Assembly (NCBI GenBank): GCA_049303835.1
Contig: JBAQNN010000003.1
Location: 114,820 to 178,819, forward strand
Origin: Minisyncoccia bacterium
GTDB lineage: Bacteria; Patescibacteriota; Minisyncoccia; Phycocordibacterales; UBA9973
Length of the DNA: 64,000 nucleotides
Reading direction: 5' to 3'
Shown: in pieces, positions 557 to 52,592 of the stretch
Numbering within the stretch: the stretch's first letter is position 1
Layout: each line of letters starts with the position of its first letter
Notes under the pieces: model-generated
Database searches by the model: none
What the model was told of the DNA's origin: nothing
What the model saw: only the letters and a program-made list of their open reading frames with translations
Position numbers and translations under genes: made by a program

Positions 557-808
557 TCAGCCGTGATGGTCGGAGATGATGTTGGTGACGAGCTTACGCG
601 CCCATGGAGTGGAGGTGATGTCCCTCCCACTCTCAACATCGAGAATCTTCTCGATGTGTTTGTTCCCGTTGATCTCAGCTCGGATGAACTTCTTGGTCTG
701 ATCCAGGTCGTTCCAGAAGAGGTTGATGTCTTCCTCCGAGGGTCTTTCCCCCACGAAAGAAATGACCTCACAACCGTTACCAAAGGTCTGAGCCCAAATT
801 ACTTCCAT
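557..808 (-). CDS. GC-rich cassette A: 83-aa hypothetical protein with no recognisable family
   Basis: ATG preceded by GGAGGT SD at 6-nt spacing; about 55% GC, unlike flanks; followed by a hairpin terminator; the overlapping plus-strand ORF has no SD. Confidence 0.55.
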   Translation of the reverse strand: MEVIWAQTFGNGCEVISFVGERPSEEDINLFWNDLDQTKKFIRAEINGNKHIEKILDVESGRDITSTPWARKLVTNIISDHHG

Positions 809-13602: not shown

Positions 13603-13827
13603 ATGAACGGCAAGCTGATCGTCATGATCAAAAGGAACGGAGGCTGGTCTGGACACGTCTTTGATGGCGCGAAGTGTGTCCAGGACCTGGATGTTCCCGC
13701 GGGTCTTCGTGTGGGTGACGGAAGTCTCGTCGCCTACGTGGAAGAAGTCGCCACCAAGATGGGCCTCGTGCCGACGGAAGTGGACTGGTCACCCCACGTG
13801 TTTCAGTTGTCTTCCCCTACCAAGTAG
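13603..13827 (+). CDS. GC-rich cassette B: 74-aa hypothetical protein
   Basis: AAGGAGG SD 7 nt upstream of ATG; about 57% GC; codons GGC/GTG/GAG atypical for the host; terminator immediately downstream. Confidence 0.6.
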   Translation: MNGKLIVMIKRNGGWSGHVFDGAKCVQDLDVPAGLRVGDGSLVAYVEEVATKMGLVPTEVDWSPHVFQLSSPTK

Positions 13828-14951: not shown

Positions 14952-15404
14952 CTACTGCGGTCGGAGGTTCTCCACCTCTCTGTAGAATGCCTCCAGGTTG
15001 GCTCCCTGCTCGGGGAAAAAGTATTTCCCCTTCTTGGCCATCGCGACCATCCGATCCAGAACCTTGTTCACCTCCTTAGGGTTTACCTTCTCTCTGTTGA
15101 GTTTCTTGAGGAGAACAGAGTAGTAGTTCGGCCAGGAGCCACTCGGCTCCACGCCGGACTCCACCGCATTCAGCTCTTGGTGGAGCAGTCTGAGGGTGGT
15201 GTGGTTCTCCATGTCAGAGAGCCAAAAGTGCAGGTCCTTCACCTTCCTTTCCATTTGCACAACCCTTCTTTCCAACTGAGCGACCTCGGTGATGGATTTG
15301 TCCACCTTCTTCTCGGTGGGCGTTCGGTAGGACGTGGGGAGGATGAGGAAAAAGATGGATACCAATCCTATGGCGAAGAGCGAAGAAGGTCTCCTTGTGG
15401 GCAT
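14952..15404 (-). CDS. GC-rich cassette C: 150-aa membrane-anchored hypothetical protein
   Basis: TAGGAGGT SD 7 nt before ATG; N-terminal hydrophobic signal-anchor (LFAIGLVSIFFLILP); GC-rich; charged coiled-coil-like remainder; no family recognised. Confidence 0.6.
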   Translation of the reverse strand: MPTRRPSSLFAIGLVSIFFLILPTSYRTPTEKKVDKSITEVAQLERRVVQMERKVKDLHFWLSDMENHTTLRLLHQELNAVESGVEPSGSWPNYYSVLLKKLNREKVNPKEVNKVLDRMVAMAKKGKYFFPEQGANLEAFYREVENLRPQ

Positions 15405-15647: not shown

Positions 15648-15884
15648 ATGCCTAGAAGAATCGGCACTCTCACTCAGAGCATCTCTCATCTCGGGAGGAT
15701 GCTCACTCAAGGCAACGAGATGAACAGCGGAACCCGTCGGACCATCATGGACACCGCCGGGTTCAACCTGACCATGGTAATAGGCCCCAGGATGGAGGAG
15801 ATTCACAGGGCACTCAAGGATGGGGACTCCAAGATGGCCCTTGAACTCCTTGAAAAGGAGATTGAGTACAGCATCAGTATCTAG
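15648..15884 (+). CDS. GC-rich cassette E: 78-aa hypothetical protein
   Basis: AAGGGGGAA SD; GC-rich; plausible TTGTCT / N16-17 / TATAAA promoter at 15581-15608; terminator follows. Confidence 0.55.
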   Translation: MPRRIGTLTQSISHLGRMLTQGNEMNSGTRRTIMDTAGFNLTMVIGPRMEEIHRALKDGDSKMALELLEKEIEYSISI

Positions 15885-22517: not shown

Positions 22518-22638
22518 ATTTTTATAAAAATTATTTATCAACCCGTTTCCCACTTTTTCCCACTTGATTAACATTATAAACCACATATAAAACAACACCA
22601 AGCCCTCCCCTGTGGATAACTCCACAAAATACGTTTTC

Positions 22639-22667
22639 TTGACTATTTGCGCTAAAAATTGTAAAAA
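22639..22667 (+). promoter_or_regulatory. sigma70-like promoter: TTGACT, 17 nt, TAAAAA; upstream of cassette F
   Basis: Hexamers read in the sequence; about 28 nt upstream of the AGAGGAGG SD and ATG at 22696. Confidence 0.4.
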
Positions 22668-22695
22668 ATAAATAGAGGAGGTTTTGAAAATTTAA

Positions 22696-22959
22696 ATGAG
22701 GATAACGATTAAAGAAGCATCCCCTGAGCAGGTAGAGGTATTTGCTCAGAGTCTCGCAAACACCCTCCACCGCCCCGTCTTTCGGTGGAACAAAGACCAG
22801 GAGGAGGCTGATGGTGCCGTGCTTGAATTCCGGGTCGCCTCCACGGGTGAAGCAGAAGATGTCCAGAAGAACATCATGGACCTCGCCTGCTCTCTTCGGG
22901 TCAACGTGATGTTCTGGACCTACCGAACATCCAAAAACAGGAGAACATTGCTCTGGTGA
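22696..22959 (+). CDS. GC-rich cassette F gene 1: 87-aa hypothetical protein
   Basis: AGAGGAGG SD; GC-rich; TGA stop (host genes in the window end in TAA or TAG). Confidence 0.6.
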   Translation: MRITIKEASPEQVEVFAQSLANTLHRPVFRWNKDQEEADGAVLEFRVASTGEAEDVQKNIMDLACSLRVNVMFWTYRTSKNRRTLLW

Positions 22960-22980
22960 CAACGACAAAGGAGGTCTACA

Positions 22981-23109
22981 GTGTTTGACTTGGCAGTAGG
23001 CATCTTCTTCGGTCTCGTGGTGTTGTTCATCATTGGCTTCATCATCCTCTGCTCCGGCGTGAGAATGATCAAAGGAAACAAGATGACTGGAGAGGAGGAG
23101 GCCCAATGA
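22981..23109 (+). CDS. GC-rich cassette F gene 2: 42-aa hydrophobic single-TM peptide, GTG start
   Basis: AAAGGAGG SD 6 nt before GTG; product VFDLAVGIFFGLVVLFIIGFIILCSGVRMIKGNKMTGEEEAQ; its stop overlaps the next start (ATGA); not in the ORF track (<60 aa, non-ATG). Confidence 0.5.
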   Translation: MFDLAVGIFFGLVVLFIIGFIILCSGVRMIKGNKMTGEEEAQ

Positions 23110-23348
23110 AAATCGTGGTTCTAAGCGCCCCAGGAGGGCCGGGCATGGAAGCGGAGAGGATTTCATTTCTACTCCGCAAGAAAGTGAAACGGGTCAAACC
23201 CAAACCCCGCCGCCGCCACTCCATAACCCTAGAGGTTCCTGGTCTAACTTGCCAGGACCTCAGAAACATCAGGAAAGGAGGGTACAGGGTCTTGATTCCC
23301 CTCTTCAACCATCCGAAGTCAACCTGGGGTTCCCCCAGGCTTTACTAG
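23106..23348 (+). CDS. GC-rich cassette F gene 3: 80-aa basic hypothetical protein
   Basis: Translationally coupled to the upstream peptide; Lys/Arg-rich KKVKRVKPKPRRRH segment; terminator follows. Confidence 0.55.
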   Translation: MKIVVLSAPGGPGMEAERISFLLRKKVKRVKPKPRRRHSITLEVPGLTCQDLRNIRKGGYRVLIPLFNHPKSTWGSPRLY

Positions 23349-23360
23349 CCACCCTCCATG

Positions 23361-23400
23361 CCCCCGCTTCGGCACGCGCCGAAGCGGGGGTGCCAAGAGT
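23361..23400 (+). terminator. GC hairpin (cccccgcttcggc acgc gccgaagcggggg) terminating cassette F
   Basis: 13-bp near-perfect stem; weak T-tract. Confidence 0.55.
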
Positions 23401-23445
23401 ATTGTTCTTTAAAAACCATCAACTAATCGGCAATAAAATGCCACA

Positions 23446-23487
23446 AACAAAAACGCTCCGACCAAAATCGGAGCCGTTCTCGTTTTT
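23446..23487. terminator. bidirectional hairpin (gctccga ccaaaa tcggagc) flanked by A- and T-runs; lysS terminator
   Basis: 7-bp stem; the A-run on the plus side reads as a T-run on the minus strand downstream of lysS. Confidence 0.6.
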
Positions 23488-23493
23488 AGCAAA

Positions 23494-25510: not shown

Positions 25511-25556
25511 CAAAAAAGAGGCCACGCGCTTGTGCGCGTGGCCGAAACGAAAACTG
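25511..25556. terminator. palindromic GC hairpin (ggccacgcgc ttgt gcgcgtggcc) flanked by an A-run and gaaacgaaaa
   Basis: 10-bp perfect stem; serves minus-strand cassette G (T-run on the minus strand). Confidence 0.65.
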
Positions 25557-25575
25557 ATTGGACGGGACAGAGAAC

Positions 25576-25758
25576 CTAAGGAGAGGCCGTCACGGGATAG
25601 TCCTCCGAGCCTTTGGTCTTCTCGGGCTCGGGCTTCTTGATGGTCGGCTCCACCATCGGAGCCTTGTCCGCTCCCTCGGGGATGGAATCCCCGAGGGAAA
25701 CCGACCCTGCTGGAGTCGTAAGCAGGAAGTTGGGAATGTAGTTTTCTCCCTTCACCAT
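25576..25758 (-). CDS. GC-rich cassette G: 60-aa Pro/Glu/Lys-rich hypothetical protein
   Basis: AAAGGAGGA SD before the internal ATG; the ORF-track N-terminal extension (to 25818) is AT-rich and contains this SD and the promoter, so it was rejected. Confidence 0.5.
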   Translation of the reverse strand: MVKGENYIPNFLLTTPAGSVSLGDSIPEGADKAPMVEPTIKKPEPEKTKGSEDYPVTASP

Positions 25759-52072: not shown

Positions 52073-52484
52073 AGATAATAAATAATTTAATAAGTAAATT
52101 TTGTACGAGAGACTAGCACGTACCGTGAAGACATACATCGACCTGTCTTCAAAAACATAGTTTTAATGTTTGTGTTATTAAGTGTTTTAAAAAAGGGGTA
52201 TGGGGGGTTGTCGATTCGTGGATGTTTGGGATTGGCTAGATGTGGTGAAACGTAACCTTCTGGAATTCCGAAACTTATTTTCAATTTAGGCTAAGGGGTT
52301 GTTTGGAATATTTTTAGATCTGAAAATCGAGGACCTCCAAAAATTCCGCTAGAAAAAATTAGAAAATGGCTTGGAAAATAAGGCCTAGTTTCAATATTTG
52401 CAGTATTTAATAACAAGGTGGTAATATGTAAGTACAACTTTATAAGCGATCTAAATCAGTAGACAATTACTGACATGATTCAAG

Positions 52485-52592
52485 ACCAGACACGGGCAAG
52501 AAACCTATCATATAGGACTGCCGTGTCTGGCCGTGTCTCGAAAGGGATGCTGGAGGACTTCGGTCCTCACCTATGTGGTAGGTTTTTTGTTT
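52485..52592 (+). promoter_or_regulatory. structured 5' leader: hairpin ccagacacggg..ccgtgtctgg, direct repeat ccgtgtctgg/ccgtgtctcg, hairpin gaggac-ttcg-gtcctc, then cctatgtggtagg plus T6, ending 4 nt before the ATG
   Basis: Read in the sequence; a terminator-like element immediately before the start codon suggests attenuation or a small RNA. Confidence 0.4.

What the first reader, a model, noticed from the sequence alone, without database searches (positions are those of the whole stretch)
22639..23400. Three-gene GC-rich micro-operon (87-aa protein, 42-aa TM peptide with GTG start, 80-aa basic protein) between mraZ and lysS
The cassette has a promoter-like TTGACT-17-TAAAAA and an AGAGGAGG SD upstream of the 87-aa ORF, which ends in a TGA stop. 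A second AAAGGAGG SD follows, then a GTG-initiated hydrophobic peptide absent from the ORF track. An ATGA overlap couples it to a Lys/Arg-rich 80-aa ORF, and a 13-bp GC hairpin closes the unit. The layout of a soluble protein, a tiny membrane peptide and a basic protein resembles small toxin/antitoxin or membrane-stress modules, but no family is recognisable.
Basis: partly seen in the sequence, partly recalled or inferred. Interest (0 to 1): 0.7.

Follow-up and report, generated by a model that had tools for sequence, protein, structure and literature searches.

The report
Orphan small-protein operon beside mraZ
The three tiny genes are real and conserved: a membrane peptide, a basic ferredoxin-fold protein and an optional third protein that always sit between mraZ and lysS in one uncultured bacterial lineage, match no known family, and show no sign of being a toxin-antitoxin system.

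Summary
ORF1 (22696-22959), ORF2 (GTG, 22981-23109) and ORF3 (23106-23348) are all under purifying selection (dN/dS 0.11, 0.24, 0.11 against a relative). Antisense ORFs are broken by stops in that relative.

I found nine other cassette layouts in metagenomes. Wherever flanks are held, the cassette lies next to mraZ and/or lysS, as in the window. The constant core is a single-pass membrane peptide followed by ORF3. ORF3 has a nearly invariant N-terminus, M[KR][IV]RVL.APGG.GMEAER[IV]S.LLRKK. ORF1 is optional: absent in some relatives and moved in one. One relative fuses a membrane anchor to an ORF3-like domain.

AlphaFold models ORF1 and ORF3 as generic beta-alpha-beta-beta-alpha-beta folds. Nothing significant matches in Pfam, NCBIfam, PHROGs, PADLOC, PDB or Rfam. 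ORF3 has no relative in the phage, plasmid, viral-contig or GTDB-representative searches.

Best reading: a vertically inherited operon encoding a membrane-anchored small-protein complex. Its function is unknown. The toxin-antitoxin idea is not supported.

Unexplained: GC3 is 0.64-0.72 against 0.32-0.46 in flanking genes. This persists in relatives down to 65% LysS identity, and six other small orphan ORFs in the window share it.

The parts
22639..22667 (+). Cassette promoter candidate: -35 TTGACT (22639-22644), 17-nt spacer, -10 TAAAAA (22662-22667)
   Evidence: Read from the sequence. The -35 TTGAC[TA] and much of the spacer and -10 region are conserved in 7 loci. The generic scan did not call it because the -10 is weak. 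Function is inferred.
22674..22681 (+). Shine-Dalgarno AGAGGAGG for ORF1, 14 nt before the ATG
   Evidence: In L002 the same SD region leads straight into ORF2.
22696..22959 (+). ORF1, 87 aa, near-neutral soluble protein with a predicted ferredoxin-like fold. It is a facultative member of the cassette.
22967..22974 (+). Shine-Dalgarno AAAGGAGG for ORF2, 6 nt before the GTG
   Evidence: GGAGG is kept in L001.
22981..23109 (+). ORF2, 42 aa, GTG start. Single-pass membrane peptide with a basic stretch and then an acidic TGEEE tail. Predicted N-out, C-in.
   Evidence: Maximum Kyte-Doolittle 19-residue mean is 3.11. The GTG aligns with ATG in L001 and L002. dN/dS is 0.24. A homologous peptide precedes ORF3 in every locus where that position is held. 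Shared motifs are GFIILC.G, TGEE and, in longer versions, a ...DPR end.
23106..23348 (+). ORF3, 80 aa, basic (pI 11.5) ferredoxin-like protein. It is the conserved core gene, and its start overlaps the ORF2 stop (ATGA).
23361..23390 (+). Conserved GC stem-loop (13-bp arms, 4-nt loop) 12 nt after the ORF3 stop. No U-tract follows it directly.
   Evidence: Six sequences keep it, with two-sided compensatory changes at 4 pairs. In L004 a further 33-aa membrane-peptide ORF takes its place.
23391..23454 (.). Conserved non-coding linker (CCAAGAG..TTGTTCTTTA..ATCAAC..ATCGGC-loop-GCCACAAA) with a small covarying hairpin, GGCA/TGCC at 23418-23431
   Evidence: It is 73-83% identical to relatives whose ORF3 DNA is only 60-69% identical. 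One pair of the small hairpin covaries. No Rfam match. The strand and the function are unknown.
23455..23474 (.). Two-way intrinsic terminator shared by the cassette (+) and lysS (-)
   Evidence: Called on both strands, with T-runs on both sides. The stem sequence differs between loci but still pairs.
22611..22619 (-). Perfect DnaA-box consensus TTATCCACA between the divergent mraZ and cassette promoters
   Evidence: It is the only copy in the window (0.61 expected by chance, so not significant alone). The GATAACT part is invariant in all 7 aligned loci and the full box is kept in the 6 that cover it, while neighbouring bases vary. Whether DnaA binds here is untested.

Best explanation
This is a genuine, vertically inherited operon of small proteins, specific to one lineage of uncultured low-GC bacteria. 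It is transcribed from its own sigma-70-like promoter, divergently from the mraZ/dcw promoter. It ends at a conserved stem-loop followed by a two-way terminator shared with lysS.

The functional core is a pair.
- ORF2 is a single-pass membrane peptide. It has a short acidic N-terminus outside, and a basic stretch plus an acidic tail in the cytoplasm.
- ORF3 is a basic ferredoxin-fold protein made in step with ORF2 through an overlapping stop and start.

I infer that ORF3 works at the cytoplasmic face of the membrane, held there by the ORF2 peptide. I also infer that its nearly invariant beta1-loop-alpha1 segment (APGG.GMEAER[IV]S.LLRKK) is the site that contacts a conserved partner or ligand. 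That loop is where ACT and HMA domains of the same fold bind their ligands. ORF1 is a second ferredoxin-fold protein and an accessory subunit that lineages gain, lose or move.

Shown: the genes are coding, the synteny is conserved, ORF2 and ORF3 always co-occur, and a fusion of a membrane anchor to an ORF3-like domain exists.

Inferred: the physical ORF2-ORF3 complex, the membrane topology and the role of the conserved loop.

The biological role is open. A link to envelope or division control is only a guess from the position at the head of the dcw cluster.
For: Coding:
- Substitutions are biased to third codon positions: [8,3,16], [10,5,17] and [10,9,30] for ORF1-3.
- dN/dS is 0.11, 0.24 and 0.11.
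- Antisense ORFs are interrupted by stops in L001.
- An in-frame 5-codon indel lies in ORF3.
- Synonymous codons vary inside the invariant ORF3 motif.

Fixed locus:
- L004 has mraZ, the cassette, lysS and greA in the window's order.
- L010 and L014 have a gene on each side of the cassette, and the downstream one is lysS by its sequence.
- Loci that reach only one flank show mraZ (L013) or lysS (L002, L005, L006, L015).
- LysS identity to the window spans 92% down to 65%.

Membrane peptide plus ORF3 as the core:
- In every locus where the position before ORF3 is held, a strongly hydrophobic peptide directly precedes ORF3. The junctions are ATGA or GTGA overlaps or 12-15 nt gaps.
- In L013 the ORF1 homologue lies between the peptide and ORF3.
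- Hydropathy is 2.2-3.1 per residue, followed by R/K residues.

Fusion: the L008 139-aa protein is an N-terminal membrane segment plus an ORF3-like domain (hhalign 96.6%, E 5e-10).

ORF1 is facultative: it is absent in L002, where the promoter and SD run straight into ORF2. It lies between the peptide and ORF3 in L013.

Promoter and hairpin are conserved.
Against: - There is no expression, localisation or interaction data.
- Topology rests only on the positive-inside rule.
- The fusion in L008 involves an ORF3-like paralogue, not the orthologue itself.
- Basic charge and an RRM-like fold would also fit a nucleic-acid-binding role that does not need the membrane peptide.
- The window's ORF2 lacks the C-terminal ...LKL.D.E.FDPR tail seen in longer homologues. 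The contact surface, if any, is therefore not the whole tail.
- The strong GC3 excess is not explained by this model.
Confidence: 0.55

Rival explanations
1. ORF3 is a small basic nucleic-acid- or ribosome-binding protein with an RRM-like or ribosomal-protein-like ferredoxin fold. The neighbouring membrane peptides are independent small genes that share the operon.
For: - pI is 8.9-11.5 across the whole family.
- The LLRKK stretch is invariant.
- The neighbours are housekeeping genes (lysS, greA, rpsU).
Against: - There is no sequence match to any RNA-binding or ribosomal family.
- ORF3 is always adjacent to a membrane peptide and often overlaps its stop.
- An ORF3-like domain is fused to a membrane anchor in L008.
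Confidence: 0.17
2. The cassette is a toxin-antitoxin or membrane-stress module in which the hydrophobic peptide is a membrane-damaging toxin held in check by the neighbouring proteins or by an antisense RNA.
For: - ORF2 resembles type I toxins and holins in size, a single membrane span and a charged tail.
- Peptide number varies between relatives: two in L010, L014, L006/L007 and L004, one in the other layouts.
- Codon usage looks foreign.
- A conserved non-coding element lies downstream.
Against: - The cassette holds one chromosomal position in all relatives found, and ORF3 groups roughly as LysS does by eye.
- There are no PADLOC or PHROG hits.
- ORF3 has no copy in phage, plasmid or viral-contig collections.
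- No endolysin and no known antitoxin family lies nearby.
- The peptide is under purifying selection together with a conserved partner.
Confidence: 0.1
3. It is a horizontally acquired island, such as a phage or host-derived remnant, whose high GC simply reflects its donor. It has no lineage-specific role.
For: - GC3 is 0.64-0.72 against 0.32-0.46 in flanking genes.
- Gene content varies between relatives.
- Six other GC3-rich small orphan ORFs are scattered through the window.
Against: - The same site is occupied in relatives down to 65% LysS identity, with GC3 still 0.57-0.74. Neutral sites should have drifted towards the host's AT bias over that distance.
- dN/dS is 0.11-0.24.
- ORF3 has no homologue among 185,579 GTDB species representatives, IMG/VR, phages or plasmids. 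Its profile search of 1.84 billion protein representatives found no credible relative outside this small family.
- ORF1 has only one relative in the 5.8-billion-protein index.
Confidence: 0.08
4. The GC-rich stretch is a structured non-coding RNA and the ORFs are accidental.
For: - GC-rich islands in AT-rich genomes are often RNA genes.
- The folding tool gave z = -4.1 on the plus strand and -4.8 on the minus strand for 22690-23400.
Against: - The substitution pattern is codon-like and an in-frame indel is present.
- There are no Rfam hits in the window or in relatives.
- With my own dinucleotide shuffles, ORF1 alone gives z = -0.06 and ORF2-3 gives -1.0.
- The whole stretch gives -2.4, the same as an ftsA control at -2.45. 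The excess comes from the terminal hairpin.
Confidence: 0.02

Closest known systems
Stand-alone HMA (heavy-metal-associated) domains such as CopZ, MerP and GolB
   Same: - Size is about 70-80 aa.
- The predicted order of elements is beta-alpha-beta-beta-alpha-beta.
- The most conserved residues of ORF3 sit in the beta1-alpha1 loop, and a G-[YF] lies before the last strand.
   Different: - ORF3 has no GMxCxxC cysteines.
- There is no Pfam HMA hit, even at E <= 10, in any of 10 members.
- No metal transporter lies nearby.
- It is not a member of the family. It resembles it only in fold.
ACT / NIL small-ligand-binding regulatory domains
   Same: - The fold is the same.
- A glycine- and proline-rich beta1-alpha1 loop is where ACT domains bind ligand. 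That last point rests on established knowledge of ACT domains.
   Different: - There is no sequence-profile match.
- ACT domains are normally fused to, or pair with, metabolic enzymes or transporters. Here the partner is a tiny membrane peptide.
- No ligand is known.
Type I toxin peptides and class III holins (single-span peptides with charged tails)
   Same: ORF2 matches in length, in having one hydrophobic span and in its basic-then-acidic C-terminal tail.
   Different: - The locus is fixed and appears vertically inherited.
- A conserved protein partner is translationally coupled to the peptide.
- No antisense RNA gene or endolysin was identified.
- No family match was found.
Small single-pass proteins encoded in or next to division/cell-wall clusters (FtsL and FtsB type)
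   Same: - It is a small single-pass membrane protein.
- It is encoded at the dcw cluster, divergently from mraZ, with ftsL-like and ftsI genes on one side and ftsA on the other in the window. FtsZ lies beyond FtsA in relatives.
   Different: - Predicted topology is the opposite, with the soluble part in the cytoplasm.
- There is no coiled coil and no homology.
- The link to division rests on position only.

Membership tests
Toxin-antitoxin module (type I or II) | A small toxic component, here the hydrophobic peptide | tested here: inconclusive
   ORF2 is a 42-aa single-span peptide. Toxicity cannot be tested with these tools.
Toxin-antitoxin module (type I or II) | A cognate antitoxin of a recognisable kind (a known protein family or an antisense RNA) | tested here: not met
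   ORF1 and ORF3 have no Pfam, NCBIfam or PADLOC match. There is no Rfam hit. A novel antisense RNA cannot be excluded.
Toxin-antitoxin module (type I or II) | Patchy, mobile distribution across genomes, plasmids and phages | tested here: not met
   Every locus with flanks has the cassette next to mraZ and/or lysS. ORF3 has no copy in phages, plasmids or IMG/VR.
HMA domain (PF00403) | beta-alpha-beta-beta-alpha-beta ferredoxin-like fold | tested here: met
HMA domain (PF00403) | GMxCxxC metal-binding loop | tested here: not met
   The loop reads APGG.GMEAER and has no cysteine in any of 10 members.
HMA domain (PF00403) | Sequence-profile similarity | tested here: not met
   No Pfam hit at E <= 10 in 10 members. 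hhalign probability is 1.4%.
ACT domain | ACT-type fold with a ligand-binding beta1-alpha1 loop | tested here: inconclusive
ACT domain | Match to ACT profiles | tested here: not met
   No Pfam family reaches E <= 10.
Structured non-coding RNA (any Rfam family) | Covariance-model match, or excess structure with covariation across the region | tested here: not met
   No Rfam hit. The coding parts fold no better than shuffles. Covariation is confined to the terminal hairpins.
Intrinsic (Rho-independent) terminator, for the 13-bp GC hairpin | GC-rich stem-loop | tested here: met
   13-bp perfect stem, conserved with compensatory changes.
Intrinsic (Rho-independent) terminator, for the 13-bp GC hairpin | U-tract immediately 3' of the stem | tested here: not met
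   The stem is followed by UGCCAAGAGUA, and the T-rich run starts 11-12 nt later. The scan instead calls the hairpin at 23455-23474 on both strands.
MraZ-controlled dcw regulon | Repeated GTG(T/G) MraZ boxes at about 10-bp spacing in the control region | tested here: met
   AGTGGGAAAAAGTGGGAAA lies at 22546-22564 on the minus strand, with 0.02 expected by chance. It is conserved in the 5 loci whose sequence reaches that point, and its second box in 2 more. The box consensus is from PMC12957436. The boxes lie on the mraZ side of the intergenic region.
MraZ-controlled dcw regulon | Cassette transcription responds to MraZ | not testable with these tools
   This needs a reporter or EMSA experiment, or transcriptomics.
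Phage holin / lysis cassette | Adjacent endolysin or spanin, or a PHROG match | tested here: not met
   No PHROG hit below E = 0.06. No lysin-like gene appears in any locus. There is no significant BFVD structural match.

The most novel reading that the evidence does not exclude
The cassette could be a lineage-specific membrane module that acts on cell division or envelope growth. It would be co-controlled with the dcw cluster through the shared divergent control region, which holds MraZ boxes and an invariant DnaA box.

Its anomalous GC3 is shared with at least six other small orphan ORFs in this 64-kb window. That could mark a distinct class of small-protein genes kept GC-rich at silent sites by selection, for example for mRNA stability or a special expression regime, rather than by recent transfer.
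Probability: 0.15. Interest if true: 0.65.

Novelty: new variant of a known kind. Interest (0 to 1): 0.4.

Why it matters
Small proteins, especially membrane peptides of 40-50 aa, are routinely missed in genome annotation. Here gene callers did call the 42-aa peptide on L001 and L002.

This is a clean, comparatively validated example. A peptide with a GTG start is conserved, under purifying selection, and always paired with a conserved soluble partner.

The pair sits at the head of the division/cell-wall cluster of an uncultured lineage. No ORF3 relative turned up in two motif-based scans of the 185,579 GTDB species representatives.

If the pair proves to be a membrane-anchored regulator, it would add a lineage-specific component to a very conserved locus.

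The persistent GC3 excess of this and other small orphan genes in a 38% GC genome is a separate question in genome evolution. It can be tested with more genomes and with transcript data.

Tried and rejected
1. Structured RNA. Rfam at gathering and at relaxed thresholds found nothing in the window or in four relatives. The tool's fold z-scores looked strong. My own controls show the coding parts are unremarkable and that an ftsA control scores the same.

2. Known protein families. Pfam, PHROGs, PADLOC, NCBIfam and PDB sequences give nothing significant for any ORF or for the paralogues.

3. Giant-protein hits in the exhaustive profile search (P0009-P0013 and others). In P0012, the one I read, the match falls on short repeats (..TTQDLTNIPAGNYSVTV..) aligned to about 20 residues of ORF3. 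The scores are summed over up to 12 copies. I judged these hits spurious.

4. HMA membership. Rejected.

5. ORF1 as a paralogue of ORF3. No detectable sequence relation (blastp E 1.6, hhalign 0.9%), although the predicted fold order is the same.

6. Other GC3-rich small ORFs of the window as ORF3 paralogues. Rejected for the four tested.

7. Mobile element. No convincing flanking direct or inverted repeats. ORF3 has no copy in phages, plasmids or viral contigs.

8. Source and taxonomy.
- The window's own ORF1, ORF3 and LysS are not on record by exact look-up.
- Two motif scans of GTDB species representatives found no ORF3 relative.
- Cluster look-ups gave no organism names.
- The taxon is therefore undetermined.
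- Two of the JGI datasets that hold relatives are cited in papers on a municipal landfill.

Full report
**1. What is there**

- Promoter-like site: TTGACT at 22639-22644, a 17-nt spacer, then TAAAAA at 22662-22667.
- AGAGGAGG at 22674-22681, then ORF1 at 22696-22959 (87 aa, TGA stop).
- AAAGGAGG at 22967-22974, then a GTG-initiated ORF2 at 22981-23109 (42 aa).
- An ATGA overlap into ORF3 at 23106-23348 (80 aa).
- A perfect 13-bp GC hairpin at 23361-23390.

The stretch is 0.48-0.60 GC, against 0.32-0.41 in the flanks. It lies between mraZ and lysS, both on the minus strand. It is therefore divergent from mraZ and convergent with lysS.

**2. Are the ORFs genes?**

Yes. A 1,084-bp relative (L001) carries all three ORFs. 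Compared with it:
- Differences by codon position are [8,3,16], [10,5,17] and [10,9,30] for ORF1, ORF2 and ORF3.
- Nei-Gojobori dN/dS is 0.11, 0.24 and 0.11.
- The only indel inside an ORF is an in-frame loss of five codons in ORF3.
- The long antisense ORFs (211 aa and 79 aa) are broken by stops in L001.
- The window's GTG start of ORF2 aligns with an ATG in L001 and L002. The ATG of ORF3 aligns with a GTG there, so the overlap is GTGA instead of ATGA.

The alternative, that a GC-rich island in an AT-rich genome is a structured RNA, fails.
- There is no Rfam match in the window or in relatives.
- With my own dinucleotide shuffles, ORF1 alone gives z = -0.06 and ORF2-3 gives -1.0.
- The whole stretch gives -2.4, equal to an ftsA control at -2.45.
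- The larger z-scores come mostly from the terminal hairpin and from small shuffle samples.

**3. Relatives and what is conserved**

Searches with ORF3, first alone and then as a profile, found a small family.
- Indexed search of 5.8 billion proteins: P0002-P0008.
- Exhaustive HMMER search of 1.84 billion representatives: this adds only P0014 and P0016.
- One metagenome scan found L003.
- Nothing was found among GTDB species representatives in two motif scans, in IMG/VR, or in phage or plasmid records.

The large proteins that also scored are not credible relatives. In the one I read (P0012), the match falls on short repeats aligned to about 20 residues, summed over many copies.

Fetching the contigs gave nine further cassette layouts, listed in the order the genes lie on the + strand.

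| Locus | Layout |
|---|---|
| L001 | ORF1, TM42, ORF3, hairpin |
| L002 | TM42, ORF3, hairpin; no ORF1, promoter and SD run straight into ORF2 |
| L003/L010/L011/L012 | TM26, TM50, ORF3, hairpin |
| L004 | 75-aa ORF3-like paralogue, TM45, ORF3, TM33 |
| L015 | end of a 75-aa-type paralogue, TM58, ORF3 |
| L006/L007 (L005 holds only ORF3 and the downstream side) | ORF1 homologue, inserted minus-strand 201-aa membrane-protein gene with host-like GC3 0.23, TM32, TM42/53, ORF3, hairpin |
| L008/L009 | 67-aa protein, TM39, 139-aa protein, ORF3 with ATGA overlap, hairpin |
| L013 | TM58, ORF1 homologue, ORF3 |
| L014 | TM53, TM50, GTGA overlap, ORF3 (62 aa), hairpin |

TMn means a membrane peptide of n aa.

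Wherever flanks exist, mraZ is upstream and/or lysS is downstream. In the longer contigs greA follows, then a YbeY-family gene in two of them, then ftsA and ftsZ. LysS identity to the window is 92% for L002 and 65% for L004. ORF3 sequences group roughly as LysS does, judged by eye. This fits vertical inheritance over a substantial depth.

The conserved unit is therefore membrane peptide(s) plus ORF3, not the three-gene set.

- **ORF3.** It has a nearly invariant N-terminus, M[KR][IV]RVL.APGG.GMEAER[IV]S.LLRKK, and a more variable C-terminal half. The codons under the invariant residues differ freely at silent sites, for example GGA/GGG/GGT and CCA/CCG/CCC/CCT. The constraint is therefore on the protein.
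- **ORF2.** The family shares an acidic residue at position 2-3 and a span of about 22 hydrophobic residues, often ending ..ILC.G or ..LFC... An R/K cluster follows, then TGEE. Longer versions continue with an ..LKL.D.E.FDPR tail that the window's ORF2 lacks.
- **ORF1.** It has four distinct homologues at 42-91% identity. It is missing in several layouts and changes position in L013.

**4. Structure and family tests**

AlphaFold2 models ORF3 as beta-alpha-beta-beta-alpha-beta (8-sequence alignment, pLDDT 77). It models ORF1 as the same order plus one more strand (pLDDT 78).

Other tests:
- ORF1 and ORF3 show no detectable sequence relation.
- HMA membership fails. ORF3 has no cysteines in the loop, no Pfam hit in any member, and an hhalign probability of 1.4%.
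- No library gives a significant hit: Pfam, NCBIfam, PHROGs, PADLOC, PDB sequences or BFVD.

Two paralogue results matter.
- The L008 139-aa protein is an N-terminal membrane segment followed by an ORF3-like domain (hhalign 96.6%, E 5e-10).
- The first gene of L004 is a weaker ORF3-like paralogue (72.6%).

A membrane anchor and this domain are therefore found both as one chain and as neighbouring genes.

**5. How it most likely works**

Shown:
- The core is a co-inherited pair under purifying selection.
- It consists of a very hydrophobic single-span peptide (Kyte-Doolittle 19-residue mean 3.11) and a basic soluble protein (family pI 8.9-11.5).
- The two genes are often translationally coupled.

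Inferred:
- R/K residues follow the hydrophobic span, and none precede it. The peptide tail therefore most likely faces the cytoplasm (positive-inside rule), and so does the domain in the fused L008 version.
- ORF3 therefore most likely acts at the inner face of the membrane, tethered by ORF2.
- Its invariant beta1-alpha1 loop is the contact site for a conserved partner or ligand. That loop is where ACT and HMA domains bind ligands (established knowledge of those families).
- ORF1 would be an accessory subunit.

I put 0.55 on this membrane-anchored-pair reading.

The biological role is open. The position at the head of the dcw cluster is a lead only. It does not show a role in division.

**6. 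Rivals**

- **Nucleic-acid or ribosome binder (0.17).** The charge and the RRM-like fold fit. The constant pairing with a membrane peptide and the fusion argue against it.
- **Toxin-antitoxin, holin-like or membrane-stress module (0.10).** The shape of the peptide fits. The fixed locus, the apparent vertical descent and the lack of any defence, phage or plasmid link do not.
- **Recently acquired island (0.08).** The composition fits. It is contradicted by retention at the same site with GC3 of 0.57-0.74 in relatives down to 65% LysS identity.
- **Non-coding RNA (0.02).** See section 2.

**7. Control regions**

The mraZ-cassette intergenic region holds conserved blocks in the loci that cover them.
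- Two direct GTGG-type repeats, AGTGGGAAAAAGTGGGAAA, on the minus strand at 22546-22564. Chance expectation is 0.02. They match the GTG(T/G) MraZ box described in PMC12957436.
- A likely mraZ promoter just upstream of the boxes on the minus strand: -10 TATAAT at 22578-22573 and -35 TTGGTG at 22601-22596. I read this from the sequence.
- A perfect DnaA-box consensus, TTATCCACA, on the minus strand at 22619-22611. It is the only copy in the window. It is not significant by count alone, but it is kept in all loci that cover it.
- The cassette -35 hexamer.

Downstream there are three elements.
- The 13-bp hairpin keeps pairing through two-sided changes at 4 pairs in six sequences. It lacks an adjacent U-tract.
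- A hairpin at 23455-23474 is a canonical terminator on both strands.
- The 58-nt linker between them is 73-83% identical to the relatives that carry the GC hairpin. For the more distant of these, ORF3 DNA is only 60-69% identical. This non-coding stretch is therefore itself constrained.

**8. Composition**

The high GC lies at silent sites. GC3 is 0.64, 0.72 and 0.64 for ORF1-3, against 0.32-0.46 for ftsI, rsmH, mraZ, lysS, greA, ybeY and ftsA. The same holds in relatives.

Six other small ORFs in the window share the property: 557-808 (-), 13603-13827 (+), 14952-15404 (-), 15648-15884 (+), 25576-25758 (-) and 29036-29350 (-). The four I tested are not ORF3 paralogues.

rpsU, presumably a highly expressed gene, did not reach the GC3 cut-off of 0.58. 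Simple expression-linked codon bias is therefore unlikely. I have no tested explanation for the GC3 excess.

**9. Verdict**

- The operon is real.
- The toxin-antitoxin interpretation is not supported.
- The family is new to all libraries searched, but its parts are of familiar kinds: a small membrane peptide and small ferredoxin-fold proteins.
- Interest is moderate at 0.4. It is a well-supported orphan small-protein module at a conserved and biologically suggestive locus, with an unexplained compositional anomaly and no function yet.

Noticed in passing
window 22546-22601 (minus strand): Two direct MraZ-box-like repeats, AGTGGGAAAAAGTGGGAAA (22546-22564), lie just downstream of a likely mraZ promoter. 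The promoter is -10 TATAAT at 22578-22573 and -35 TTGGTG at 22601-22596. The repeats are conserved in relatives and fit the GTG(T/G) box consensus of PMC12957436.
   Followed up: partly
window 22611-22619 (minus strand): A perfect DnaA-box consensus, TTATCCACA, lies between the divergent mraZ and cassette promoters. It is the only copy in the 64-kb window. It is kept in all aligned loci that cover it, while flanking bases vary.
   Followed up: partly
window 557-808(-), 13603-13827(+), 14952-15404(-), 15648-15884(+), 25576-25758(-), 29036-29350(-): Six further small ORFs (60-150 aa) have GC3 of 0.66-0.76 in a genome whose ordinary genes have GC3 of about 0.3-0.45. The four tested are not ORF3 paralogues. 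This looks like a class of GC3-rich small orphan genes. No explanation was tested.
   Followed up: partly
window 25521-25758 (minus strand): A 60-aa GC-rich ORF, MVKGENYIPNFLL...PVTASP, starts with ATG at 25758. It has an AAAAGGAGG SD and a GC hairpin plus T-run terminator (25521-25544), and lies between greA and rpsU. L002 has a 63-aa gene at the matching place. No Rfam match was found there.
   Followed up: partly
window 23391-23454; L001, L002, L006, L008, L010, L014 equivalents: The non-coding linker between the GC hairpin and the lysS terminator is better conserved (73-83%) than ORF3 DNA is in the more distant relatives (60-69%). It contains a small covarying hairpin (GGCA/TGCC, GGCGA/TCGCC or GGCG/CGCC). 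It could be a small RNA or a protein-binding site. The strand is unknown.
   Followed up: partly
between the lysS stop and its terminator: L001 about 905-975, L002, L004, L006, L008, L010; absent from the window near 23490: All relatives aligned there carry an AT-rich segment of about 72 nt (..AAATTTCTTAGT.TA..ATATA.ATATATTAAGA.AAATTA..), with internal palindromes in some copies. The window lacks it.
   Followed up: no
L006 813-1418 and L007 693-1298 (minus strand): A 201-aa called gene (239-aa maximal ORF) for a membrane protein, with host-like GC3 of 0.23, is inserted inside the cassette between the ORF1 homologue and the membrane peptides. It is on the opposite strand.
   Followed up: no
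L013 864-1187 against 1114-1344: The ORF1 homologue lies between the membrane peptide and ORF3. As an open frame it runs 74 nt into ORF3 in another frame. This is either a real overlap or a sequencing or assembly frameshift.
   Followed up: no
window 52448-52568 (+): A LOOT RNA (RF03000) match at 62.2 bits, above the gathering score of 46.4.
   Followed up: no
L004 7023-7124 (+); L015 583-660 (+): In these relatives a further small hydrophobic ORF (33 aa and 25 aa) follows ORF3. In L004 it takes the place of the GC hairpin seen elsewhere.
   Followed up: no
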